From: an uncultured Chloroflexia bacterium
GTDB lineage: Bacteria; Chloroflexota; Limnocylindria; Limnocylindrales; CSP1-4
Direction of reading: 5' to 3'
Assembly (NCBI GenBank): GCA_963703155.1
Contig: OY969796.1
Coordinates: 3,350,151-3,414,150 of the forward strand
DNA: 64,000 bases
In this document: positions 3,054 through 49,807 of the stretch, in pieces
Numbering within the stretch: position 1 is the stretch's first letter
Layout of the letters: every line of letters begins with the position of its first letter
Translations under genes and position numbers: made by a program
The notes under the pieces: generated by a model
The model's database searches: none
The model's input: the letters and a program-made list of their open reading frames with translations, nothing else
Told to the model about the DNA's origin: nothing

Positions 3054-4457
3054 ATGACAAGCGCCAATCCCCTGCCGGCGGCCCCCGCGGGCGGCTCGTT
3101 CTGGTGGGCGACCGGTGATCCAGGACCGGGCCGGCCGCCGGCTCGTGGCCGCCACGAGGTTGATGTTGCGGTCGTCGGCGGCGGCTTCACCGGGCTCTGG
3201 GCGGCGATCGCGCTGCTCGACACGGACCCCTCGCTGCGCGTTGCGGTCCTGGAGGCGGAGCGCGTGGGCTGGGGGGCGAGCGGCCGCAACGGCGGGTTCT
3301 GCGAGGCGTCGCTGACCCATGGCCTCCCGAACGGACTCCTGCACTTCCCCGACGAGGTCGACAGACTCGAGGCAGAGGGGCGTCGGAACCTCGCCGAGCT
3401 TGTGGCGTTCGTGGCCTCGGAGGGGATCGACGCCGAGCTGGAGGAGACCGGGACGCTGCTCGTGGCCTCGCAGCCCCACGAGGTGGACGGGCTGCGCGCG
3501 TACGCGGAGGCGAGCGCCCGACTCGGGGGGAGCTCGACATTCCTCGACCGCGCCGAGGTTCGGGCGCTCCAGCCCTCGCCGCGCTGGCTGGCCGGCGTGA
3601 GGTCGGGCGCCGACCAATGCGTGATGGTCAACCCGGCCAAGCTCGCGTGGGGCCTGGCGGCCGCTGCCGAGCGCCGCGGTGCCCAGGTGCTCGAGCACAG
3701 CCGCGTCACGGGACTGCGGCGCCGGGCTGGCGGCGTGACGGTGCGGGTGGACGGTGGTGGCGTGGTGGAGGCGGAGCACGTCCTCGTCGCCACGTCTGCA
3801 TATTCGGCGTGGCTCAAACGGCTCGGGCCCGTGTTCGTGCCGGTCTACGACTACGTCGTGATGACCGAGCCGCTCACCCCGGAGCAGCAGGCGTCGATCG
3901 GCTGGGCGGACCGGTTCGGCATGTCGGACAGCGGCAACCAGTTCCACTACTTCCGCCTGTCCGCCGATCACCGGATTCTGTGGGGCGGCTATGACGCCAT
4001 CTACCACCCGGGCAACCGCGTGGTGCCGCAGCACGACCAGCGGCCGGCGACCTTCGAGGTGCTGGAGCGCAACTTCGCGGCCACGTTCCCCCAGCTCGAC
4101 GGGATCCGCTTCACGCATCGATGGGGCGGCGCCATCGACACCACCACCCGGTTCAGCGCGACGTTCGGCGACGTGATGGGCGGTCGCGTCCACTACGCGC
4201 TGGGATATACCGGCCTGGGCGTGGGCGCCTCACGCTGGGCGGCGGGGATCCTCCGGGACAAGGTGCTGCGGCCGGGGTCGGATCTGCTGCGCCTGCGCTT
4301 CGTCCGCTCCGCGCCGCTGCCCATCCCGCCCGAGCCGCTCCGCGCGCCCGTAGTGAACCTGATGCGCGACGCGGTCATGGGCGCCGACGCGCATGACGGC
4401 CAGCGCAGCCTGTTCCTGCGCGCGATGGACGCACTGGGCGTGGGGTTCGACTCCTAG
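3054..4457 (+). CDS. FAD-dependent oxidoreductase, DAO / PuuB-like amine oxidase family
   Basis: VAVVGGGFTGLWAA Rossmann motif, GASGRNGGF, WGGAID and GYTGLGVG. Confidence 0.88.
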   Translation: MTSANPLPAAPAGGSFWWATGDPGPGRPPARGRHEVDVAVVGGGFTGLWAAIALLDTDPSLRVAVLEAERVGWGASGRNGGFCEASLTHGLPNGLLHFPDEVDRLEAEGRRNLAELVAFVASEGIDAELEETGTLLVASQPHEVDGLRAYAEASARLGGSSTFLDRAEVRALQPSPRWLAGVRSGADQCVMVNPAKLAWGLAAAAERRGAQVLEHSRVTGLRRRAGGVTVRVDGGGVVEAEHVLVATSAYSAWLKRLGPVFVPVYDYVVMTEPLTPEQQASIGWADRFGMSDSGNQFHYFRLSADHRILWGGYDAIYHPGNRVVPQHDQRPATFEVLERNFAATFPQLDGIRFTHRWGGAIDTTTRFSATFGDVMGGRVHYALGYTGLGVGASRWAAGILRDKVLRPGSDLLRLRFVRSAPLPIPPEPLRAPVVNLMRDAVMGADAHDGQRSLFLRAMDALGVGFDS

Positions 4458-9010: not shown

Positions 9011-11725
9011 CTACCCCTTGAACAGCGAGAGCTGGTCGCCCGTCCGCTCGATCGCCGGGTCGAGGCCCAGGAGCGGCTCCAGGTCGGCGAGCGCCACCTG
9101 GTCGCGGCCCATCCAGTCGCGCAGGTGGTCCGCCTTGACCAGGTGCCAGCCGCCGTTCTCGAGCTCGTTGCGCAGCAGCGGCGAGCGCTCCAGCTTGTAG
9201 CGGACCAGCTCCACGCGCTCGGGGAGGACGACGCAGAACCGGACGACCCGGTCGTCGGCGGCCATGCGGGCGTGGCGTCGCAGGACCGTGTCGCCGAGCA
9301 TCGCCGTCCACTCCACCTCCCAGAAGAACGCCATCCGCCCGCGGACGTACCAGATGACGTCGATGTCCCCGAGCTCCTCGGCGCGGAGCCGGCCGAGATA
9401 GGGCGGGCCGGCGGCCTCCCGCGTGTCGAGCCGGTTCCCCAGCGGCTCGCGAGCGACGCGGCGGCTCTGCTGCCGCGCGCCGATCCAGCACGAGAAGCCC
9501 AGCCGATGACCGAGGTCGACGAGCCCCGCGACCAGCTCGGCATGCTCCTGGCTGCGCTTGGCGAGGTCGTCCGCGGTGAGCAGGCGGTCAGGGGTGCTCG
9601 CGATGCTGCGATAGCTCTCGAGGCAGGCGCGGACGAGGCCCTCGTCGGGGAGGTCGGGCCCGGTGAACAACCCGCTGATCCGCTCGAGGAACGCCCCCTC
9701 CGACATCGGGCCGGCTGCCGAGAGCAGGCTGAACACGGCCCACTCGACGCGGTCCGAGAGGGGCACGGCGGCGGCGTCGCGGTCGGGGCGCTGGCCCAGC
9801 CACCACCGCTCGTCCTCCAGCTTGACCAGCCGACGGCCGTCGGTCTCGGTCAGCGCGTTCCGCACGAGGCCCAGCAGCCGCTCGACGTGGTCGGCCTCCG
9901 GCGCCGGGCGCGCGGAGGTCGCGTCGCGCGTGTCGGCGGCGACGTCCACTCCCTCGGGCTCGGGCGGAGCAGGCGGCCGCACGAGCTGGCGCAAGTGCCC
10001 GGCCCGGTCGAGGCCGACGAGGATCTCCCCCAGCAGTCCGCCGAAGCTCACGGGCTCGCCGCGCATCTTGAGGACGTCCACAGCGGCGTCCACCACGGCG
10101 CGCGCCGCCTCGTCAGCCGAGAACGGCCCACTCGACGGCCCCGGGCGCTCTGCCGCGGCGAACAATCGGTCCGAGCTGTCGGACCGCCCGGAGCGGTCTG
10201 ACCGCACGCTCGCGCCGCGCCCGCCAGTCGGCTCCAGCGCCACGTTGGCGCGCGTGCGCGGCCCTCCTGCGGTCGCGTTGGACCCGGGAGGCGAGAACTC
10301 GACGGTTCCCGTCACGTCGCCGCCCGGCTCCGAGACGCGCGCCGAGACGAGCCGGTAGCCGGCGGCGATGCCGCCCAGCGCCGTGGCCACGAGCGATTCA
10401 GCGCCCTCCGCCTCAAGGAGCAGGATCGTCCGGGCGTCGCGGGCGAGGGCCGGCGCGATGCCGCGGAGCGAACGGGTGATCGCAGCGGCCTGCCAGGACC
10501 ACGACGGCCGGTAGGCCGGACCGAACAGCGGCTCCAACGGCAGGGTCGCCGCGGCGTCGCGGCCCAGGGCCCAGGCCGTCCCGTGGTATGCCCAGGCGAG
10601 CCGGTCCGAGGCCGGGCGCTGCGGGACCGTGCCCAGCACCAGCCGGACGCGCGGCCGGATCCCCGTCCCGGCCAGGTGCTCCATCTCCACGGCGATGGCG
10701 CCGAGGCCCGCCGGGGTGTCCTGGCGCAGGACGGCCGTCGCCGCGCCCTCGTCGAGGCTGCGCAGGTCCTCGCCCAGCCGTCCTGGGACGGGGCCCCACG
10801 CCGCGCCCTCGAGCCGCTGCACGAAGCCGCGGACCGTCCGGATCCCGTCCTCGAAGGCGACCCACGGGTTGCGCTCGCGCCAGGTGGTCCCCGACGGCGG
10901 CTTGACGTGACCGCCCGTGATCCGCAGCGCCGCGACTCGACCCGCCGAGATGGCGAGCCGGCTCGACGGCGCCACCGCCTGAAGCACCGCCAGACGCATC
11001 GCCGATTCGATCGAGCGTGCGCGGAGGTCGCCCTCGACGCGCTCGAGGATGGCGGCGAGCGACGCCAGCTGCCGGGGGGTGTGGAGGTCGAGCAGCTCGT
11101 CGGCCAGTGCGTCGCCGCCGTCGAGCGTCGGGAAGCGGTCGCGCAGCATGGGCCGTGAATCGTCGTCGTCGGAGTCGAGGGCTTTCGCCAGGTCGTTGGC
11201 GTCGAGCGGCGCCTGGCGATTCTCGCCGCCGCCCAGCTGGTCGCGGCAGACGGGGCAGCGGTAGTGCTTGCGGGTCGGGCGCGGGCGGGATGGCCGGCCC
11301 TGCTCGTCGGGCCCGTCGGCGGTCCAGGTGACCTCGTCGAGGATCACGGGCCGGTCACAGGTGGCACACCGGCTGGCGAATCGGTTGGTGATCCACGCCT
11401 TGAGGCTGGTCTCACGCCGGGCGGAGGCGGCCAGCGACTGGACCGCCGCGTCGAGGTGGCGCAGGTCCGGCGGGCGGAGGACCACCTCGGCGAGGAGCCG
11501 GTCCAGCGCGGTGCCCTCGAGGCTGACCGCCTTGCGCTGGTGGTCGATCGCCGCGCGCGCCACCCAGCCGCCGCGCCCGAACGGGTCGAGCACGATGTCC
11601 CCGGGCTCGGATGCGGCCTCGAGTCGTGCGGCGATCAGCGCCGGAGGCGGCGGCGGAGACAGTCGCTCCCAGGCCGGGAGCGAGAAGCCGGGTTCCGCGC
11701 GCAGGAGGAGGGTTCGTCCCGCCAT
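9011..11725 (-). CDS. Degenerate Zn-ribbon DNA methyltransferase-like protein with a C-terminal PD-(D/E)xK-like domain
   Basis: GDIVLDPFGRGG (motif-I-like), CATC...CPVC zinc ribbon, LVLGTVPQ where DPPY is expected, and C-terminal DIDVIW...FWEVE. Confidence 0.6.
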   Translation of the reverse strand: MAGRTLLLRAEPGFSLPAWERLSPPPPPALIAARLEAASEPGDIVLDPFGRGGWVARAAIDHQRKAVSLEGTALDRLLAEVVLRPPDLRHLDAAVQSLAASARRETSLKAWITNRFASRCATCDRPVILDEVTWTADGPDEQGRPSRPRPTRKHYRCPVCRDQLGGGENRQAPLDANDLAKALDSDDDDSRPMLRDRFPTLDGGDALADELLDLHTPRQLASLAAILERVEGDLRARSIESAMRLAVLQAVAPSSRLAISAGRVAALRITGGHVKPPSGTTWRERNPWVAFEDGIRTVRGFVQRLEGAAWGPVPGRLGEDLRSLDEGAATAVLRQDTPAGLGAIAVEMEHLAGTGIRPRVRLVLGTVPQRPASDRLAWAYHGTAWALGRDAAATLPLEPLFGPAYRPSWSWQAAAITRSLRGIAPALARDARTILLLEAEGAESLVATALGGIAAGYRLVSARVSEPGGDVTGTVEFSPPGSNATAGGPRTRANVALEPTGGRGASVRSDRSGRSDSSDRLFAAAERPGPSSGPFSADEAARAVVDAAVDVLKMRGEPVSFGGLLGEILVGLDRAGHLRQLVRPPAPPEPEGVDVAADTRDATSARPAPEADHVERLLGLVRNALTETDGRRLVKLEDERWWLGQRPDRDAAAVPLSDRVEWAVFSLLSAAGPMSEGAFLERISGLFTGPDLPDEGLVRACLESYRSIASTPDRLLTADDLAKRSQEHAELVAGLVDLGHRLGFSCWIGARQQSRRVAREPLGNRLDTREAAGPPYLGRLRAEELGDIDVIWYVRGRMAFFWEVEWTAMLGDTVLRRHARMAADDRVVRFCVVLPERVELVRYKLERSPLLRNELENGGWHLVKADHLRDWMGRDQVALADLEPLLGLDPAIERTGDQLSLFKG

Positions 11726-32632: not shown

Positions 32633-32670
32633 CGCCCTTCACGCCCTCGGGGGCACCCGTCCCGCAATTT

Positions 32671-32789
32671 CCGGCAGATGTTCCTCGTGCGGCCGCTATA
32701 GGCGGCTGAATCGCCACATGTTCATGACGCGGCCACCTGCCCGCAGATCTGGGCAGTCCCCCGCCAGATGTTCGTCGTACGGCCGTTAT
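32671..32789. repeat. Direct-repeat array with core CA(G/C)ATGTTC-N7-GGCC behind the XRE-nuclease gene
   Basis: 29-bp repeats at 32671 and 32761 (25/29 identical). A third core lies at 32715 and a CAGATCTG variant at 32744. Confidence 0.7.
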
Positions 32790-32822
32790 CCAGCGATTCA
32801 TCGGACAACGGCCGACCCACGG

Positions 32823-33580
32823 TCATTTGGGGAAGCCCGAGTCGGCTGGATTGCTGGCCGGTGCAGCCGAGACGCGAACGCGCTTCGGGGTCGCCGCCTT
32901 AGCGGTCGCAGCGCGGTCATCTGCAAGAAACCAGACGCCCGCAGGAGCCGGCCCCACAGGGTCCTCGAGCCAGTGTCGGATTTCGAGCGTTCCCGCCGGC
33001 AGAGCGGCCTGAACCGTGGCGCCGAACCTCGCGAGTCGTCGCCGGTTCGTACTGGTGTCGGCCAGCACGAGGATCCTCGCCACCGACGACACCGGCGCCC
33101 AGCCCCGATCCCGCGCGATCGTCGGGCCGAGCCGCCCCTTGCGGTCGATCCCGCCGAGCATCGCCTGCATGTCGGGCGTGATCGACTTGACCTCGAACAC
33201 AGTCAGGGCGTGGCGCTTCGGATGCCAGGCCAGAACGTCGATCGAGCCGCGCTCGCCGTAGTGCGAGAACGATGCCTCGACGCAGACCTCCCAGCCCAGC
33301 GCGCCGAGGCGCGCGACCAGCGCTTCAACGATCCGCGCGTGCGCCTCGTCGAGCAGTCGGTCGAGACCCTCGCCCTGCCAGTGGGCCGAAGCTCGAGCGA
33401 GCCTCCTACCGCCACCACGACGCGCTCGATCACGCCGATCGCGATCGCCCCGCTCTCGCCCCGCTCGATCCGGCCGACGACTGGCCGAGAGACATGGGCC
33501 TTGCGCGCGAGATCGTCCTGACGCCACTGACGACGCCGTCGCAGGGCGCGGACCGCGCGGCCGATCCGATCGAGCTCCAT
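32823..33580 (-). pseudogene. XRE-type HTH + PD-(D/E)xK nuclease-fold protein, split by an apparent 1-nt deletion at the G run 33383-33385
   Basis: Frame 1 reads MELDRIGRAVRALRRRRQWRQDDLARKAHVSRPVVGRIERG (XRE HTH). Frame 2 reads HWQGEGLDRLLDEAHA...EASFSHYGERGSIDVLAWH...FEVKS. Length is 3n+2. Confidence 0.8.
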
Positions 33581-33859
33581 GCGGACAGGGTCGCCAGACG
33601 GCCTCAACTCCGGCTTATGTGCGCCCGCCAGCCGGTCGTTGCAGATGAAGGCCGCTGGCGAGCCAGAGATGCCCTGTGCATAAGGGCAGGGTGAGCGTCC
33701 GCCTGCATGCTGCTGTCACCGCCCCGGGCGGGAGGGGGTTTGTGGTGGCCGCCAGTGCGCTGGCGTCTCGCCGTGGCGGTGGGCGGCGGAGCGCCCAAAT
33801 CGCCGCCCTGCGCCACAATCGGCGCACCCGAGACAAGCGCCCCGCCCCGGAGACCTGCC

Positions 33860-43835: not shown

Positions 43836-45143
43836 ATGCCAGTTGAGCTCTCCGAGCGGCAGCGCCGCCTCCTCGACGCAGCCCTTGTCCTTGCCGTCGT
43901 CGCGCTGGCCTTCGTGGTGGTCGCCGACGTCGCCAGCGTGCTGACGCTGTTCAGCGACGTCCTGCTCGTCTTCTTCCTCGCCTGGCTGCTCTCGTTCGCG
44001 ATCCTGCCGCTCATCAACCTGGTCAAGCGGCTGGTGCCCGGCCTGCCGGACATCGTGGCGGTGCTCCTGGTGTACCTGGTCGTCGTCGGGCTGCTGCTCG
44101 GCCTCCTGATCCAGGTCTCCAGCGTCCTGGCGTCGTCGATCGGCGCCCTGCCCAAGGACCAGCCCCTCTACGACCAGTTCGTGAAGCTGCTGACCGACGT
44201 GCAGGCGCGCCTCGTCGGAGTGGGCTTCCGGGTGGACCTCGTTGGCCAGGCGCCGGCGATCTGGGACACCATCAACCAATGGGCGGTCCAGCTCGTCGGG
44301 CCGCTCCAGCAGGTGGCCGTGGCCAGCATCGGCGTGCTGGGCAACGTGCTGATCATCACGATCCTCTCGGTGTACCTGGTCATCGACCGCGAGGAGGCCC
44401 TTGCCTTCGTCTACCGGCTGGTCCCGCCCGGAAGGACGCAGACCGCTCGCCTCGTCCAGACCAGCGTCGCCCGCTCCTTCGGCGGGTTCCTGCGCACGCA
44501 GCTGGTGATGGGCCTCGTGTTCGGCGTCCTGGCCGCGGTCGTCAACGCGGTGTTCGGCCTGCCCTACAGCAGCGTGACCTCGGTGGCGGCCGGCGTGCTG
44601 CACGCCATCCCGTTCTTCGGGCCCTTCCTCTCCTGGCTGCCGCCGGTGGCCGTGGCCCTGCTGTCGACGCAGTTCCCGACGCCGGTGATCGTCTTGGCGG
44701 TGATGGGCGTCGGCTGGTTCGCGACGATGAACATCCTCCAGCCGCGGCTCATGGCCGGGGCGGTCGGGATCCACCCGATCGTGGTCCTGGGTTCGGTGGT
44801 GGTCGGGTCGAAGCTGGCCGGCATTCCCGGGGCCATCTTCGGCATCCCCATCGCGGCGGTGCTCTCGGCGTTCTTCTTCCACTGGTTCGAGCGGTCGCGC
44901 GAGGGCGGCTCGGTGGCGGACCGCGCGACGAGGCGGCTCCAGGCGCGCGAGGGGCATCCGGTGCGACGGCCGCAGGAGCCGGTCCCGGGGCTGGACGAAG
45001 ACGTGGACGAAGTGCGCCGACGCCGCCAGGGGCAGGACACGGAGCCCATCGCGGCGGAGGACGATCCGGTGATCGCGGCCGCGGCTGGCATCGTTGCCAC
45101 CGTCACGCCGCCCGAGTCGGTAAGCGATCGGGGCTCCCGGTGA
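43836..45143 (+). CDS. AI-2E (PerM/YhhT) family transporter
   Basis: Multi-TM protein with IPFFGPFL, NILQPRLMAGAVGIHP and GIPGAIFGIPIAA. Confidence 0.92.
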   Translation: MPVELSERQRRLLDAALVLAVVALAFVVVADVASVLTLFSDVLLVFFLAWLLSFAILPLINLVKRLVPGLPDIVAVLLVYLVVVGLLLGLLIQVSSVLASSIGALPKDQPLYDQFVKLLTDVQARLVGVGFRVDLVGQAPAIWDTINQWAVQLVGPLQQVAVASIGVLGNVLIITILSVYLVIDREEALAFVYRLVPPGRTQTARLVQTSVARSFGGFLRTQLVMGLVFGVLAAVVNAVFGLPYSSVTSVAAGVLHAIPFFGPFLSWLPPVAVALLSTQFPTPVIVLAVMGVGWFATMNILQPRLMAGAVGIHPIVVLGSVVVGSKLAGIPGAIFGIPIAAVLSAFFFHWFERSREGGSVADRATRRLQAREGHPVRRPQEPVPGLDEDVDEVRRRRQGQDTEPIAAEDDPVIAAAAGIVATVTPPESVSDRGSR

Positions 45144-45168
45144 CGCTCGGCCCGACGCACCCCTGGCG

Positions 45169-46191
45169 ATGAGCGCCAACGACCCCGGCCGGCCGGAGAT
45201 GGCACGGGAGCGCGCCCGGACCGAGCGCCGCGACCTCGACAAGGAGCGCGGCGAGCCGCTGGCCGGCGCTCGGGGCGGCAAGCGCTCGCTCAAGCGGATG
45301 GGCAAGCCGCTCGACGCGTGGACGACCCGTCCGCGGATCCTCGTGACCAACGATGACGGGATCGAGTCGCACGGGATCCTCGCCCTCAAGCGGGCGCTCG
45401 AGCCGCTGGGCGACGTGATCGTCGTGGCGCCCGACTCCAACCAGTCGGCTGTGGGGCACCAGAAGACGCTGTCGCGCCCCCTCCGTGTCCGGGAGCGCAC
45501 GCTCCCCGACGGGTCCACCGGCTACGCGATCGACGGCTCGCCCACCGACGCGGTCAGCCTGGGCCTGCTGGGCTTCTTCGACGAGAAGTTCGACCTGGTC
45601 GCGTCGGGCATCAACTACGGCGCGAACCTCGGCGACGACCTCACCTACTCGGGCACGGTGTCGGCCGCGATGGAGGCGATCATCAACTCCACGCCCGCCT
45701 TCGCCATCTCGCAGGAGTACTCCGAGGAGGTGGACTTCACCCTCGCGGGCATCGCGGCGGCGATCGTGGGGCGCAACATCCTCGAGCACGGCCTGCGGCG
45801 CGGCGAGCTGCTCAACGTCAACGTGCCCGCGGTCAGCGTGGAGGAGTGCGGCGGCATCGAGGTGACGCGGCTCGGCCGGCGCGTGTACCAGGACCAGCTC
45901 ATCGCGCGGGTCGACCCGCGCGGGCTCCCCTACTACTGGATCGGCGGGCCGCCGCCGTCGGGGATCGCGCTGCCGGGGACCGACTTCGACGCCATCGTCA
46001 ACCGGCGCGTCTCGGTCACGCCGGTGCACCTGGACTTGACGGGGCGGCGCCTGCTGCGGGAGCTGCCGAAGTGGGACTGGGCGCTCGAGGCGTCGCCGAA
46101 GCAGCCGACGCCGGAGGACGCCGAGGCGCTTCGCCCCGCGCCGGCCGAGCGCGAGCGGTTCGCCGAGGAGACGAAGCTCGAGCGGCGGTAG
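45169..46191 (+). CDS. surE: 5'/3'-nucleotidase SurE with an N-terminal extension
   Basis: ILVTNDDG, VAPDSNQSAVG, GSPTDAV and SGINYGANLG...YSGTVSAA. Confidence 0.94.
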   Translation: MSANDPGRPEMARERARTERRDLDKERGEPLAGARGGKRSLKRMGKPLDAWTTRPRILVTNDDGIESHGILALKRALEPLGDVIVVAPDSNQSAVGHQKTLSRPLRVRERTLPDGSTGYAIDGSPTDAVSLGLLGFFDEKFDLVASGINYGANLGDDLTYSGTVSAAMEAIINSTPAFAISQEYSEEVDFTLAGIAAAIVGRNILEHGLRRGELLNVNVPAVSVEECGGIEVTRLGRRVYQDQLIARVDPRGLPYYWIGGPPPSGIALPGTDFDAIVNRRVSVTPVHLDLTGRRLLRELPKWDWALEASPKQPTPEDAEALRPAPAERERFAEETKLERR

Positions 46192-46216
46192 CGACCGTCA
46201 CTTCAGGCGCCATTCC

Positions 46217-46442
46217 GATGGTGGTCTGGCGCCACCAAAGTGACCAACATCGGTCCCGGGTGGCCTTCGATGGTGGTCCAGCGCCACCGAAGTGACCCGG
46301 GTGGCCGGCGATGGTGGCTCACTCCCACCAACTCGTGCGGAATGGTGGTCCGCGCCCACCATCGCGTGCGGATGGTGGCGCCCTGCCACCGAAATCGCCG
46401 TGTGATCCGTCGAGCCGGGCAATTTGGTGGTGCCAGACCACC
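46217..46442. repeat. Array of six GGTGG-N7-CCACC palindromes
   Basis: Sites start at 46220, 46272, 46313, 46344, 46374 and 46426, between the convergent surE and flavoprotein genes. Confidence 0.85.
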
Positions 46443-46494
46443 GCGAGTCGACGACCCTCAACGGCCCTCGCAAGGCGAGCAGGCCAACCTCGAG

Positions 46495-48183
46495 CTAGCG
46501 GCGCCGCTTCCTCCGGTCCGCGATGACCTCGCGCGCCGCGTTCCGGCCCGGGGCGCCCGTGACGCCGCCGCCGGGATGCGCGCCCGACCCAGCGAGGTAC
46601 AGCCCGCTCACCGGCATGCGGTAACGGGACCAGCCCAAGAGCGGCCGCCACAGCCAGAATGCGTCGAGCGCCGGCTCCACGTGCATCGGGTGGCCGCCGG
46701 TGAGCCCGAACTCGCGCTCGAGGTCGGCCGGCGTGAGCACCTGGCGGGCCGTGACGCGGGAGGAGATCCCGGGCGCCACGCTCTCGAGTGAGCGCAGGAC
46801 GGCGTCGCCCACGGCCTCGCGCTGTGTGTCCCACTCGGCGGCGGTCGGCGCAGACGGCATCCACTGGGCGATCACGCTCATCACGTGCGTGCCCTCGGGC
46901 GCACCCGCCACGAGCGACGGGTCCACCAGGGACGGGATCGTCGCCTCCAGGACCGGCTGCTCGGCGAACCGCCCGTACTTCGACGCGTCGAAGACGCGCT
47001 CCATCGCGTCGATCGAGGTCGTCCCCACCTGGATCCGGCCGCGCAGGAGTCGCGCGTCGCCCGCGGCCGCGGGGAACTCCGGCAAGCCCTCCAGCACGAG
47101 GTTGACCTTCGCCGACACGGCCGGGGTGCGGATGTTCCCCGCCCGCCAGCGCATGTTCGGCCCCACGGTGACCGGATCGACCAGCGAGGTCAGCAGGCGC
47201 TTGGGGTTGATGCCCGCCACCACCGTCGGCGCGGCGATCTCCTCGCCGGACTCCAGCACGACGCCCGTGACGACGCCGTCCGCGGTGGCCACCGACGCGA
47301 CGCGCGCGCCGGTCCGGATCTCCGCGCCGGCGAGCTTGGCAGCTGACGCGAGCGCCTCGGAGACGGCCGAGGGGCCGCCCTTGGCGAACACGGTCTCGCC
47401 GATGCCGCCGCTGTCCGTGCCGGCCGCGTCCGCGAGCAGGACCGACGTCGAGCCGGCCGACCACGGCCCCATCGCGGTGTGGCGGACGCCACGCCAGGCC
47501 GTGGTGGCGCGGATCGCCTCCGTCTCGAACGACTCGGCGACGAAGTCCGCGATGGCCATCGCGAGGACCCGCAGGATCGTGCGCCCGTCGTCGCGGCCCA
47601 TGCCGCGGAAGGCGCGCGCGAGGCGCAGGCCCATGAGCGCGTCGCCAGCGCCCGGGCCCTGGATGTCGGGCGGGGTCTCCTCGCCGATGTCCACGAGGAA
47701 CTTCGAGAGGGCGCGCACCCGCCGGTCGAACTCGACGAACGCGGTGGCGTCGTCGTCGGACCACGCGCGCAGCGACTCGACGCTCTTGCCCAGGTCGGCC
47801 CACAGCGTCACGGCACGGCCGTCGGGCTGGGGGGCGAAGACGCGGACCTCGGGCGAGACGAGCGCCATCCCGAAGCCGCCCAGGTCGAGGTCGCGGGCGA
47901 CTGCCGGGCGCAGCCGGCCAACGGTGTGGGCGAGCGTCGGCACGCGCACGCCGGGCGCGATCTCCTCGGTCACGGCCGCACCGCCGACGCGGTCGCGCGC
48001 CTCGAGCACCAGGACTCGCTGCCCTGCCCGCGCGAGGTACGCCGCGGCGGTCAGCCCGTTGTGGCCGGCGCCGACGACGATGACGTCATAGGCGACGCCA
48101 GTCGAAACCGGGGCCGTCGCGGTCGACGGGTCCGCCTTGGCCGGAGCCGGCGCGGGCGTGGTCGAAGTCGCAGTCGTGGTCAT
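46495..48183 (-). CDS. Phytoene-dehydrogenase-like FAD oxidoreductase (second of a pair)
   Basis: VVGAGHNGL, LEARDRVGGAAVTEE, PSLVDPSL and YLAGSGAHPGGGVTG. Confidence 0.88.
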   Translation of the reverse strand: MTTTATSTTPAPAPAKADPSTATAPVSTGVAYDVIVVGAGHNGLTAAAYLARAGQRVLVLEARDRVGGAAVTEEIAPGVRVPTLAHTVGRLRPAVARDLDLGGFGMALVSPEVRVFAPQPDGRAVTLWADLGKSVESLRAWSDDDATAFVEFDRRVRALSKFLVDIGEETPPDIQGPGAGDALMGLRLARAFRGMGRDDGRTILRVLAMAIADFVAESFETEAIRATTAWRGVRHTAMGPWSAGSTSVLLADAAGTDSGGIGETVFAKGGPSAVSEALASAAKLAGAEIRTGARVASVATADGVVTGVVLESGEEIAAPTVVAGINPKRLLTSLVDPVTVGPNMRWRAGNIRTPAVSAKVNLVLEGLPEFPAAAGDARLLRGRIQVGTTSIDAMERVFDASKYGRFAEQPVLEATIPSLVDPSLVAGAPEGTHVMSVIAQWMPSAPTAAEWDTQREAVGDAVLRSLESVAPGISSRVTARQVLTPADLEREFGLTGGHPMHVEPALDAFWLWRPLLGWSRYRMPVSGLYLAGSGAHPGGGVTGAPGRNAAREVIADRRKRRR

Positions 48184-48184
48184 G

Positions 48185-49807
48185 TCAGGCCACCTTCCGG
48201 CCGCGGGACTTGAGGACCTCGAGCGCGGCCAGCCGCCCGTTGGCGCCCATGAGGCCGCCGCCGGGGTGCGTGGACGAGCCCGACAGGTACAGGTTCTGCA
48301 CGGGCGTCTTGAACCGCGCGTAGCCGGGCACCGGCCGGTTGAAGAACAGCTGCTCGAGCGAGAGCTCGCCCTGGAAGATGTTCCCCTCGGTCAGGCCCAT
48401 CGTCCGCTCGATGTCGAGCGGGGTCAGGACCTGACGGCCGATGATGATCTCGCGGATGTTGGGCGCGAACTCCGCGATCCGGTCGATGACCGCGTCGCCG
48501 AAGGCCTCGCGCTGGTCGTCCCAGGTGCCGAGCTCGGGCGCCAGCTTGTACGGCGCGTACTGGACGAAGCACGAGATGACGTGCTTTCCCGGAGGCGCCA
48601 TCTGCGGGTCCACCAGCGTGGGGATGATCATGTCGATGTACGGCTTGCGGCTGAACCGCCCGTACTTCGCATCGTCGTAGGCCTGCTCCATCTCGATCGT
48701 GTTCGGGCTGAACGAGATGGCGCCGCGGAGGTGCTCGCCCTCGCCGGGGAGGCACGTGAAGTCGGGCAGGCGGTCCACGGCCAGGTTGACCTTGCCCGAG
48801 CTGCCGCGGAACTTGAAGCGGCGGACCTCCTGCTCGAACAGCGGGTCGAGCGAGCCGGGCTCGAGCAGGTCGAGGAACGTGACCTTCGCGTCAGCTGAGG
48901 AGAGGACGACGCTCGCCTCGATCTCCTCGCCGCTCTCGAGCGCGACGCCCGTCGCCCGGCCGTTCTTGACGACGATCCTCGCGACCGGCGCCTCGGTCCG
49001 GATCTCGGCGCCCAGCGCTTGCGCCGCACGGGCGATCGAGTACGACACCCCGCCGGTGCCGCCCTTGGGGATGCCCCACGCGCGGAAGGCGCCGTCGATC
49101 TCGCCCATGTAGTGGTGGAGCAGCACGTAGGCCGTGCCCGGCGAGCGGATGCCCTGGTAGGTGCCGATGATCCCCGACGCCGACATCGTCGCCTTGAGCG
49201 GCTCGGTCTCGAACCACTGGTCGAGGAAGTCCTTGGCGGACATCGTCATCAGCTGGACGAAGACGGCCTGCTGGCGCTCGGGGAGCTGGGCGAAGCGGCG
49301 GGCGAGGCTCGCGATCGGGAGCAGCGGGCGCGGGTCGTTGTCGGTGGGGTCGCCCGGGACGATGCCGAGGATCGGCTTGATGAACCGGGCCATCTCCACC
49401 ATGAGCTGGCCGTACTCCTCGTACGCCTCGGCGTCGTTCTTCGACCAGCGGCGCAGCTCACGGACCGTCCGGCCGTGGTCGTTGACCCGCCACAGGTAGT
49501 CGCCGCCGTCGGGCGTCCTGTCCACGCCCTTCCGCAGCGGGGTGAACGTGCCGTCAAGCGGCAGGATGTCGAGGCCGTAGCGGGGCAGGTTGAGGTCGCG
49601 GATGATCTCCGGGCGCAGCAGGCTCACGACGTAGCTCGCGACCGAGAAGCGGAAGCCGGGGATGATCTCCTCGGTGACGGCCGCGCCGCCGAGCACGTGC
49701 CGGCGCTCGAGGACGAGCGTCTTCAGGCCCGCCCTGGCCAGGTAGGCCGCGGACACGAGCCCGTTGTGCCCGCCGCCGATGATCACCGCGTCGTAGCGCT
49801 GGGGCAC
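48185..49807 (-). CDS. Phytoene-dehydrogenase-like FAD oxidoreductase (first of a pair)
   Basis: IIGGGHNGL, LERRHVLGGAAVTEE, AYVLLHHYMG, PTLVDPQMAPPGKH and YLSGSSTHPGGG. Confidence 0.9.
   Translation of the reverse strand: MPQRYDAVIIGGGHNGLVSAAYLARAGLKTLVLERRHVLGGAAVTEEIIPGFRFSVASYVVSLLRPEIIRDLNLPRYGLDILPLDGTFTPLRKGVDRTPDGGDYLWRVNDHGRTVRELRRWSKNDAEAYEEYGQLMVEMARFIKPILGIVPGDPTDNDPRPLLPIASLARRFAQLPERQQAVFVQLMTMSAKDFLDQWFETEPLKATMSASGIIGTYQGIRSPGTAYVLLHHYMGEIDGAFRAWGIPKGGTGGVSYSIARAAQALGAEIRTEAPVARIVVKNGRATGVALESGEEIEASVVLSSADAKVTFLDLLEPGSLDPLFEQEVRRFKFRGSSGKVNLAVDRLPDFTCLPGEGEHLRGAISFSPNTIEMEQAYDDAKYGRFSRKPYIDMIIPTLVDPQMAPPGKHVISCFVQYAPYKLAPELGTWDDQREAFGDAVIDRIAEFAPNIREIIIGRQVLTPLDIERTMGLTEGNIFQGELSLEQLFFNRPVPGYARFKTPVQNLYLSGSSTHPGGGLMGANGRLAALEVLKSRGRKVA

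What the first reader, a model, noticed from the sequence alone, without database searches (positions are those of the whole stretch)
46217..46442. Six GGTGG-N7-CCACC palindromes spaced at about whole helical turns
Seen: six perfect 5-bp inverted repeats, each with a 7-nt variable centre, start at 46220, 46272, 46313, 46344, 46374 and 46426. The spacings are 52, 41, 31, 30 and 52 bp, or about 5, 4, 3, 3 and 5 turns of 10.4 bp. Five sites are preceded by AT, and CCCGGGTGGCC and AAGTGACC also recur. The array lies between convergent genes, so it is not a promoter. Inference: constant half-site geometry with same-face phasing suggests a cooperative protein-loading platform (nucleoid organiser, recombination or partition-like site, or mobile-element end) more than a simple REP/terminator. 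No obvious cognate protein is encoded next to it.
Basis: partly seen in the sequence, partly recalled or inferred. Interest (0 to 1): 0.7.

Follow-up and report, generated by a model that had tools for sequence, protein, structure and literature searches.

The report
Helically phased palindrome array, protein-binding platform
Six identical-armed short palindromes between two convergent genes of an uncultured soil/freshwater Chloroflexota (Limnocylindria) bacterium all lie on one face of the DNA helix; they belong to a family of such arrays whose recognition sequence changes between relatives, and they most likely form a docking platform for an unidentified DNA-binding protein.

Summary
Six perfect GGTGG-N7-CCACC sites lie at the stated coordinates (0.16 expected by chance in 64 kb) between convergent surE and a CrtI-like oxidoreductase gene.

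The same-face phasing also holds. The six positions fit a 10.3-bp period (R=0.98, p≈4e-4). Arrays in other genomes fit that fixed period (0 of 20,000 simulations).

Limnocylindrales relatives carry the same architecture, often as a four-site core spaced 52-31-52. It occurs in other intergenic gaps and with other half-sites: GGTGG, GTTGG, GGTGC, GATGC and GTTGC, all GNTGS-N7-SCANC.

Between orthologous arrays the arms are 93% identical, the centres 61% and the linkers 47%, with no indel. The two halves vary independently, and no U-tract terminator or Rfam family matches.

The best reading is a cooperative array of dimer-binding operators on double-stranded DNA. One lead for the binder is a fast-evolving XRE-HTH protein with a nuclease-like C-terminal domain. 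It sits directly downstream of such arrays in two lineages, each with its own half-site, and has a (frameshifted) paralogue in the window.

The binder and the function at this convergent gap remain unproven.

The parts
46220..46236 (.). site 1, GGTGGtctggcgCCACC (flanks gaT...Aaa)
   Evidence: site 1 plus 9 nt is an inverted copy of site 6 (26 nt, 88%, I1)
46272..46288 (.). site 2, GGTGGtccagcgCCACC
   Evidence: 90% identical over 30 nt to site 1, so a recent tandem duplicate (D1)
46313..46329 (.). site 3, GGTGGctcactcCCACC
   Evidence: aligns with the first perfect site of the sister genome L039/L240
46344..46360 (.). site 4, GGTGGtccgcgcCCACC (7-bp arms ATGGTGG/CCACCAT)
   Evidence: 31 bp from site 3, the same spacing as the central pair in all related arrays
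46374..46390 (.). site 5, GGTGGcgccctgCCACC
46426..46442 (.). site 6, GGTGGtgccagaCCACC, an inverted copy of site 1
   Evidence: I1
46203..46445 (.). whole array with its repeated linker modules (CCCGGGTGGCC x2, AAGTGACC x2, CGTGCGGA x2); all six sites on one helical face (period 10.3 bp)
45169..46191 (+). surE (5'/3'-nucleotidase), left boundary gene; ends 28 nt before site 1
   Evidence: Pfam PF01975, E=1.3e-58
46495..48183 (-). CrtI/amine-oxidase-like FAD oxidoreductase, right boundary gene, convergent with surE; ends 52 nt after site 6
   Evidence: Pfam PF01593/PF13450
32826..33607 (-). Paralogue (apparently frameshifted near 33385) of the XRE-HTH + nuclease-like-domain family that I propose as the kind of protein that binds such arrays. 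It is NOT shown to bind this array.
   Evidence: A profile of 58 homologues matches the C-domain at E=1.9e-10 and the HTH, in another frame, at E=7e-5; HTH_31/HTH_3 by Pfam

Best explanation
The array is a set of six operator-like binding sites on double-stranded DNA for one homodimeric sequence-specific DNA-binding protein. Each site is an interrupted palindrome, wwT-GGTGG-(Y-N5-R)-CCACC-Aww. The protein contacts the two arms, whose centres are 12 bp apart (a T-N11-A geometry), and does not read the 7-bp centre. Site starts are separated by whole helical turns (3, 3, 4, 5 and 5 turns of about 10.3 bp). The bound dimers would therefore line up on one face and could touch each other, giving a cooperative higher-order nucleoprotein complex over about 220 bp.

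The array belongs to a Limnocylindrales-wide family of such modules. Four of the related arrays have a four-site core spaced 52-31-52 or one close to it. The half-site differs between modules and genomes, which implies a binder whose specificity co-evolves with its sites.

The most likely kind of binder is a member of a fast-evolving family with an XRE-type HTH and a roughly 180-aa restriction-endonuclease-like C-terminal domain. This is inferred, not shown. Because this copy lies between convergent genes it cannot be a classical promoter operator. I infer that it is an 'orphan' platform, acting as a transcriptional roadblock or insulator between the two converging units, as a titration site, or as the footprint of a selfish element.

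Shown: the sites, the phasing, selective conservation of arms and spacing, half-site switching, and patchy locus distribution. Inferred: protein binding, cooperativity, the identity of the binder, and the physiological role.
For: (1) Six perfect sites against 0.16 expected.
(2) Phasing: R=0.98 at 10.3 bp, p about 4e-4. Eight spacings from arrays in other genomes or loci (31, 52, 51, 52, 31, 62, 82, 53), tested at the period fixed from the window, give R=0.94 with 0 of 20,000 simulations as good. Counting each distinct spacing once gives p=1.5e-4.
(3) Related arrays share the same 5-N7-5 geometry and spacing grammar:
- sister L240: GTTGG/GGTGG, 52-31-52-51
- L248 and L250, hom|DUF1810 gap: GGTGG, 52-31-62
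- L249: GGTGC, 52-31-52
- L248, surE|crtI gap: GATGC, 52-30-52
- L232: two arrays, spaced 52-31-53 and 82-53
- L261: GTTGC, 83-125
A generic scan for 52-31-52 modules with any half-site over about 200 kb found four family arrays, in window, L240, L248 and L249, and a further array in L232 at 335-487.
(4) Selection: in the orthologous arrays of L248 and L250 (surE 85% nt identity) the arms are 37/40 identical, centres 17/28 and linkers 64/135, in an ungapped alignment.
(5) Sequence is conserved, not pairing. Position -1 (T>C) and position +1 (A>G) vary independently, with 4 C/A combinations against 1 C/G. Nearly all single changes break the would-be pair. The variant half-site GTTGG recurs on either side independently.
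(6) The arms are homogeneous within an array although centres and linkers are near-random. That argues for a trans factor rather than recent copying.
(7) Candidate binder: in L232 a 52-31-53 G[GT]TGG array ends 46 nt before an XRE-family gene. In L261 the syntenic orthologue (43% aa identity, against 84% for the neighbouring lrp gene) has three GTTGC-N7-GCAAC sites upstream and only one such site (one mismatch) in the other 20 kb. L257 lacks both the gene and the sites. The AlphaFold model has pLDDT 93. Its HTH is closest to ClgR, HipB and R-M controller proteins, and its C-domain weakly resembles the endonuclease-bearing R2 retrotransposon protein and the nuclease Bax1.
(8) No terminator-like site, no promoter-like site and no Rfam family.
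Against: No binding experiment exists and no cognate gene lies next to this array.

The XRE link rests on two syntenic loci. The paralogue in the window is 12.6 kb away, looks frameshifted, and is flanked by a different repeat.

Arrays between convergent genes (window, L248, L249) are unusual for transcription-factor operators and typical of REP/BIME-type repeats.

Symmetric half-site changes between arrays (GGTGG, GGTGC, GATGC) also preserve Watson-Crick pairing, so they are equally what a hairpin model predicts. One sister site (GTTGG...CCAAC) is a compensated double change.

Sites 1, 2 and 6 are recent duplicates, so part of the window's spacing regularity is inherited rather than independently selected.

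Each unit can form an RNA hairpin of -8 to -11.6 kcal/mol.

Genome-wide copy number and RNA 3' ends could not be examined.
Confidence: 0.55

Rival explanations
1. REP/BIME-like element. The units are short hairpin-forming repeats that spread and are maintained as single-stranded DNA or RNA structures, for example mobilised by a RAYT/IS200-type HUH transposase. They sit at gene 3' ends, where they stabilise mRNA or are simply tolerated.
For: Three of the arrays lie between convergent genes (window, L248 surE|crtI, L249 yidB gap). Presence among relatives is patchy, and different families occupy the same gap. Several palindrome families coexist in one genome. Half-site changes between arrays keep the arms complementary. 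The units fold as hairpins. Classical GTAG-GGTGGGC...GCCCACC REPs exist in other phyla.
Against: The arms are only 5-6 bp, with DNA hairpins of -4.8 to -7.2 kcal/mol. There is no conserved GTAG-type tag. Loops and linkers are near-random while the arms are fixed, which is the opposite of copy-and-paste repeats. Flanking and arm positions vary independently rather than as pairs. Exact conservation of whole-helical-turn spacing has no meaning for isolated hairpins. Only one cluster occurs in 64 kb.
Confidence: 0.2
2. Miniature foldback (MITE-like) mobile element. The roughly 150-220-bp module is a non-autonomous element with terminal inverted repeats (site 1 against site 6), inserted into tolerant intergenic gaps. 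Its internal sites are binding sites for the transposase or recombinase that moves it. This overlaps with the best explanation.
For: Site 1 plus flank and site 6 plus flank form a 26-nt, 88% inverted repeat. In all arrays the outer sites face inward with A-rich flanks. The module architecture is symmetric, 52-31-52. Arrays occur at at least five different gaps and are absent from orthologous gaps in relatives. An earlier follow-up in the same genome described about 165-nt foldback repeats.
Against: The linkers of the two halves are not, or only marginally, complementary (p = 0.27, 0.05, 0.04, 0.014, <0.002). No target-site duplication or clean empty site could be defined. Orthologous arrays persist with conserved arms after the linkers are saturated, which points to host-level selection.
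Confidence: 0.12
3. RNA-level role only. The six stem-loops are bidirectional transcription terminators or 3'-end protective hairpins for the convergent surE and crtI-like mRNAs.
For: The array sits between convergent genes. Each unit folds at -8 to -11.6 kcal/mol as RNA. The whole region folds better than shuffles on both strands, with z = -5.5 and -4.0.
Against: There is no U-tract and no terminator-like site in the scan. The same arrays also occur in divergent promoter gaps and upstream of genes. All stems have the same sequence instead of drifting with compensatory changes. Spacing falls in whole DNA turns. Six hairpins are far more than termination needs.
Confidence: 0.08
4. Functionless by-product of local tandem and inverted duplication of one palindromic unit.
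For: Sites 1, 2 and 6 and the linker modules are clearly recent duplicates. The sister genome has fewer perfect sites.
Against: There is cross-genome conservation of arms and spacing against decayed linkers. The same grammar recurs with different half-sites at other loci.
Confidence: 0.05

Closest known systems
HipB (XRE-family antitoxin) operator array of the E. coli hipBA promoter
   Same: An XRE-type HTH dimer binds an interrupted palindrome with 5-bp arms and an unread centre. From my own knowledge the consensus is TATCC-N8-GGATA. Four operators are bound cooperatively (PMC3376134). HipB is among the best structural matches to the HTH of the candidate binder family.
   Different: HipB operators lie in the promoter of their own operon and act with the HipA toxin. 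The window's array has six sites, lies between convergent genes, has no TA or HTH gene beside it, uses N7 rather than N8, and has wider spacing (3-5 turns).
REP / BIME clusters of enterobacteria and RAYT-associated REPs
   Same: Clusters of short palindromic units fill intergenic gaps, often between convergent genes. They are patchy between relatives, and several families occur per genome.
   Different: REPs have longer imperfect stems (about 10-15 bp), a conserved GTAG-type tag, and loops as conserved as the stems. They occur in tens to hundreds of copies. Here the arms are 5-6 bp, the centres are free, the spacing is helically phased, and only one cluster occurs in 64 kb.
Restriction-modification controller (C) protein operators (C-boxes)
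   Same: Small XRE-HTH dimers bind paired palindromic boxes cooperatively. Specificity diversifies between systems. C.BclI, C.AhdI and C.Esp1396I are structural neighbours of the candidate HTH.
   Different: C-boxes are two adjacent sites upstream of the C gene within an R-M operon. No methyltransferase/endonuclease operon is present here, and the arrays are larger and dispersed.
LysR-type T-N11-A boxes (recognition and activation binding sites about 3 turns apart)
   Same: GNTGS-N7-SCANC satisfies T-N11-A. The central pair of sites is 30-31 bp apart, similar to the two dimer sites of a LysR-type regulator tetramer (my own knowledge).
   Different: No LysR gene lies adjacent or divergent. The arrays have four to six sites, and one lies between convergent genes.

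Membership tests
REP/BIME (RAYT-associated repetitive extragenic palindromes) | Imperfect palindrome of about 20-40 nt with a conserved 5' GTAG/GTRG tag | tested here: not met
   Arms are 5-6 bp and no conserved tag lies outside the arm; the half-site logo is wwT-GGTGG-y. True GTAG-GGTGGGC REPs from other phyla look different.
REP/BIME (RAYT-associated repetitive extragenic palindromes) | Copies are near-identical throughout (loop included) because they arise by copying | tested here: not met
   Centres and linkers are near-random while the arms are fixed.
REP/BIME (RAYT-associated repetitive extragenic palindromes) | Tens to hundreds of copies per genome and a cognate RAYT gene flanked by REPs | not testable with these tools
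Only one cluster occurs in the 64-kb window.
Intrinsic (Rho-independent) terminator | GC-rich hairpin followed by a U-tract | tested here: not met
   0 terminator-like sites in 45800-46900; no T-run follows any site.
XRE/HipB-type cooperative operator array | Interrupted palindromes with fixed arm spacing, repeated and placed so that dimers can interact | tested here: met
   Six 5-N7-5 sites on a 10.3-bp lattice.
XRE/HipB-type cooperative operator array | Array lies in the promoter region of the gene for its binder (autoregulation) | tested here: not met
   The window array lies between convergent surE and a crtI-like gene. The feature is met only for related arrays in L232 and L261.
XRE/HipB-type cooperative operator array | Specific binding by the HTH protein | not testable with these tools
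   Needs EMSA, DAP-seq or ChIP.
ParB-parS centromere | 16-bp parS palindrome (TGTTNCACGTGAAACA) near parAB or the origin | tested here: not met
   The sequence is unrelated. No parAB is among the neighbouring genes. The GC skew shows no switch.
CRISPR array | Direct repeats of 23-47 nt separated by unique spacers of similar length, usually with cas genes | tested here: not met
   The units are 17-bp palindromes 30-52 bp apart, and the linkers share repeated modules.
Any Rfam RNA family | Covariance-model match at or above the gathering score | tested here: not met
   No hit near the gathering score in 45000-48000.
Lrp/AsnC operator array | Sites conserved upstream of the regulator gene in relatives | tested here: not met
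   Array B of L232 lies upstream of an lrp gene, but 17 loci with close homologues of that lrp gene (L251-L267), 13 of them with 90 nt or more of upstream sequence, lack any such site there.

The most novel reading that the evidence does not exclude
Limnocylindria carry a so far undescribed two-part system. One part is a rapidly diversifying family of XRE-HTH proteins fused to a restriction-endonuclease-like domain. The other part is helically phased four- to six-site palindrome modules (GNTGS-N7-SCANC, core spacing 52-31-52) whose half-site co-evolves with the protein. The modules are seeded at changing intergenic positions, including gaps between convergent genes. There they would act as sequence-addressed nucleoprotein barriers or as the mobile ends of a selfish element. 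That would make this a new class of specificity-switching protein/DNA-array pairs.
Probability: 0.25. Interest if true: 0.8.

Novelty: new variant of a known kind. Interest (0 to 1): 0.62.

Why it matters
If the reading is right, this gives a clean natural example of a DNA-binding protein and its multi-site platform changing recognition sequence together while keeping an exact three-dimensional layout (52-31-52 bp on one helical face). Such a case is useful for understanding how specificity evolves and how higher-order nucleoprotein complexes are built. It would also assign a function to the conspicuous repeat-filled intergenic gaps of an abundant but uncultured soil and freshwater lineage. 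Finally, it would give a directly testable candidate protein family for those gaps.

Tried and rejected
**Closed or exhausted tools**
There was therefore no genome-wide count, no spacing statistics in the window's own genome, and no RAYT or XRE paralogue census.
- The window's own proteins are not on record in the contig index.

**Scans that were uninformative**
It returned mostly unrelated GTAG-type REPs of Planctomycetota and Cyanobacteria or coding repeats. Only L039, the syntenic sister locus, was relevant.
Only L232 was relevant.
- The viral-contig scan found one unrelated 31-nt tandem repeat.
- No RNA-seq run holds the stretch. Contigs from four DNA metagenome runs stop at the edges of the array, so they give neither population variants nor 3' ends.

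**Hypotheses rejected**
- Lrp/AsnC as the binder. This was suggested by L232 array B lying upstream of an lrp gene. Homologous lrp loci L251-L267 carry no such sites; they share a different palindrome near the start instead.
- A simple long-foldback model. Outer linkers are at best marginally complementary.
- Origin or terminus location. There is no GC-skew switch in the window.
- A match to any Rfam family.

**Other searches that led nowhere**
- A literature search for TGGTGG/CCACCA palindromes and for Limnocylindria repeats found nothing relevant.
- Pfam, NCBIfam, PADLOC and a PDB profile search recognise only the HTH of the candidate binder family.

Full report
**Observation.** The sequence between 46192 and 46494 contains exactly six perfect GGTGG-N7-CCACC palindromes, at 46220, 46272, 46313, 46344, 46374 and 46426. 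No other copy exists in the 64-kb window. Dinucleotide-preserving shuffles of the window give 0.16 on average and never more than one. I enumerated every palindrome with 5-bp arms and a loop of 3-9 nt; the only other local cluster of three or more was a group of three GAGTC-N6-GACTC sites near 50 kb. Five sites are preceded by AT and the sixth by TT. The linker modules CCCGGGTGGCC, AAGTGACC and CGTGCGGA each occur twice. The gap lies between surE (45169-46191, +; PF01975, E=1.3e-58) and a CrtI/amine-oxidase-like FAD oxidoreductase (46495-48183, -), so the two genes are convergent. SurE homologues and earlier notes place the genome in the Limnocylindria/Limnocylindrales (Chloroflexota), at about 72% G+C.

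**Phasing.** Relative to site 1 the sites lie at 0, 52, 93, 124, 154 and 206 bp. On a 10.3-bp lattice all six fall within +/-0.5 bp (resultant length 0.98). Random spacings of 28-60 bp reach this in 0.035% of trials when the period may vary between 10 and 11 bp. They reach it in 0.7% of trials when any period from 5 to 20 bp is allowed. Sites 1, 2 and 6 are recent duplicates: sites 1 and 2 are 90% identical over 30 nt, and site 6 is an inverted copy of site 1 with 26-nt arms at 88%. The window alone therefore cannot separate inherited spacing from selected spacing.

**Relatives.** Most of its hits were classical GTAG-GGTGGGCnnnGCCCACC REPs of Planctomycetota and Cyanobacteria or coding repeats, and are unrelated. 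It did return the syntenic locus of a sister MAG, L039 (also fetched as L242). That MAG's SurE is 96% identical in protein and 92% in DNA, with 20% divergence at third codon positions. There the intergenic DNA is only 57% alignable, but it holds palindromes at 11111 (GTTGG...CCAAC), 11163, 11194, 11246 (one mismatch) and 11297 (two mismatches). Their spacing is 52-31-52-51. More distant relatives carry arrays elsewhere:
- L248 and L250 have four GGTGG sites spaced 52-31-62 in the divergent hom|DUF1810 gap, and L246 has a decayed copy there.
- In L248 the surE|crtI gap itself holds four GATGC-N7-GCATC sites spaced 52-30-52.
- L249 has four GGTGC-N7-GCACC sites spaced 52-31-52 in another convergent gap, plus a lone GATGC site after surE.
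- L232 is a Limnocylindrales metagenome contig; its Lrp is 91% identical to a protein named from that order. It carries two arrays, at 335-487 (G[GT]TGG, 52-31-53) and at 4195-4347 (GGTGG, 82-53).

A generic scan for four palindromes with any shared half-site at 52-31-52 (+/-1) over about 200 kb of window and relatives returned four family arrays, in window, L240, L248 and L249, and the new L232 array at 335-487. All half-sites fit GNTGS, so every site is GNTGS-N7-SCANC, which is a T-N11-A box.

**Independent test of the phasing.** Eight spacings from the non-window arrays were tested at the period fixed from the window (10.3 bp). They give a resultant length of 0.94, reached by none of 20,000 simulations. 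Counting each distinct spacing value once (30, 31, 41, 51, 52, 53, 62, 82) still gives p=1.5e-4. The two L261 spacings, 83 and 125 bp, are 8.0 and 12.1 turns.

**Selection.** The hom|DUF1810 arrays of L248 and L250 come from genomes whose surE genes are 85% identical. They align without a gap across all four sites. The arms are 37/40 identical, the centres 17/28 and the linkers 64/135, which is close to random at this base composition. Arm sequence and site position are therefore maintained while everything else decays.

**Sequence or structure?** The half-site logo from 42 halves is wwT-GGTGG-y. The base before the left arm (T>C) and the base after the right arm (A>G) do not covary. C/A combinations occur four times and C/G once. 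Nearly all single changes in the arms break the would-be pair. The variant half GTTGG turns up five times on either side, only once on both. This pattern is expected for two independently read half-sites of a dimer on duplex DNA, not for a stem. Two observations are ambiguous: the arms are homogeneous within each array, and the switches between arrays (GGTGG, GGTGC, GATGC, GTTGC) are symmetric. Both are predicted by a co-evolving binder and also by a hairpin. Each unit can fold, at -8 to -11.6 kcal/mol as RNA and -4.8 to -7.2 as DNA. However, there is no U-tract, no terminator-like or promoter-like site, and no Rfam match. The outer linkers are at best marginally complementary, so the module is not a simple long foldback.

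**Distribution.** Each array is missing from the orthologous gap of some relatives:
- The surE|crtI gap holds GGTGG sites in the window and sister, GATGC sites in L248 and none in L250. In L246 the gap is only 27 nt, next to a different neighbour.
- The hom|DUF1810 gap is empty in L249, and in the window and sister the gap upstream of DUF1810 (where hom is not the neighbour) carries no sites.
- The lrp-upstream array of L232 is absent from 17 loci with close homologues of that lrp gene, 13 of which include 90 nt or more of upstream sequence.

The Lrp lead is thereby rejected. The patchiness shows that arrays are gained, lost or re-specified quickly. All the surE-region arrays lie within about 6 kb of surE, but I only sampled that region, so I give this no weight. 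The GC skew shows no origin or terminus signal.

**A candidate binder.** In L232 the 52-31-53 array ends 46 nt before an XRE-family gene. That copy carries an in-frame TAG. In L261-L266 the syntenic orthologue is only 43% identical, whereas the neighbouring Lrp is 84% identical. It is preceded by three GTTGC-N7-GCAAC sites (13726, 13809, 13934), and only one further site, with one mismatch, occurs in the remaining 20 kb. L257, which lacks the gene, has no such sites. The family has about 65 clusters, nearly all at 40-57% identity, and the two with an organism name are from Chloroflexota. It has an N-terminal HTH_3 domain and a conserved roughly 180-aa C-terminal domain with invariant E114, P120 and D126 and nearly invariant E141 (E..D..ExH/K-like motifs). 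The AlphaFold model is confident (pLDDT 93). Its HTH matches ClgR, HipB, SinR and R-M controller proteins. The C-domain gives only weak matches to the endonuclease-bearing R2 retrotransposon protein and to Bax1. A profile of the family detects a paralogue in the window at 32826-33607 (-). The C-domain matches at E=1.9e-10 and the HTH, in another frame, at E=7e-5, which indicates an apparent frameshift. That paralogue is 12.6 kb from the array and is flanked by a different repeat, so it is not shown to be the cognate protein. HipB, an XRE-family dimer that binds four interrupted-palindrome operators cooperatively (PMC3376134), is the closest described analogue of the site architecture.

**Verdict.** REP/BIME-like hairpin repeats (0.2), a MITE-like element (0.12, partly overlapping) and RNA 3'-end hairpins (0.08) are the rivals. 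Three things remain unknown: the binder, the role of an array between convergent genes, and the genome-wide copy number. No RNA run holds the stretch. DNA metagenome contigs stop at the array's edges.

Noticed in passing
window 36381, 36476, 49939, 50034, 50062: A second palindrome family, GAGTC-N6-GACTC, occupies two other intergenic gaps with spacings of 95 and 28 bp. The geometry differs (N6) and the spacings do not fall on the 10.3-bp lattice.
   Followed up: partly
window 32826-33607 (-) and 32640-32800: This gene is a paralogue of the XRE-HTH + nuclease-like C-domain family, with an apparent frameshift near 33385. It is followed by three direct repeats with a core (C/A)(G/C)ATGTTC...CGGCC. 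A related inverted pair, CCAGATGTGAA...TTCACATCTGG, fills the surE|crtI gap of L250 (11018-11282).
   Followed up: partly
L232 534-1283: The XRE-family gene directly downstream of the 52-31-53 array has an in-frame TAG at 961-963, at a conserved Leu position. It is either a pseudogene or a sequencing error.
   Followed up: no
L240-L245, 3' part of the surE|crtI gap (e.g. L242 11350-11499): Strains with identical SurE differ only in the copy number of a roughly 36-nt tandem repeat (cgcagcgaggcccggcgaccgatcgcctaccggcgc) next to the array. The gap length ranges from 390 to 476 nt.
   Followed up: no
L001-L119 (e.g. L027, L035, L050, L068, L087): Planctomycetota, Cyanobacteria and Poribacteria genomes are full of clustered GTAG-GGTGGGCnnnGCCCACC units. 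These are classical REP-type repeats that merely share the letters GGTGG/CCACC with this finding.
   Followed up: partly
window 46495-49807 (-): Two CrtI/COG1233-like FAD oxidoreductase paralogues lie head to tail with a 1-nt gap. They are conserved in the relatives and no carotenoid genes are nearby.
   Followed up: no
L232 4100-4160; L257 9930-9990; L261 9940-9990: A conserved palindrome around CCGAAGATC(N)TTCGG lies just upstream of the lrp-tnaA operon in all relatives. It is probably the real Lrp autoregulatory operator.
   Followed up: no
window vs L240 (blastn, window 35-57 kb): All intergenic gaps between the window and the sister genome (genes 85-90% identical) fail to align at all. 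Intergenic turnover in this lineage is therefore much faster than synonymous divergence.
   Followed up: partly
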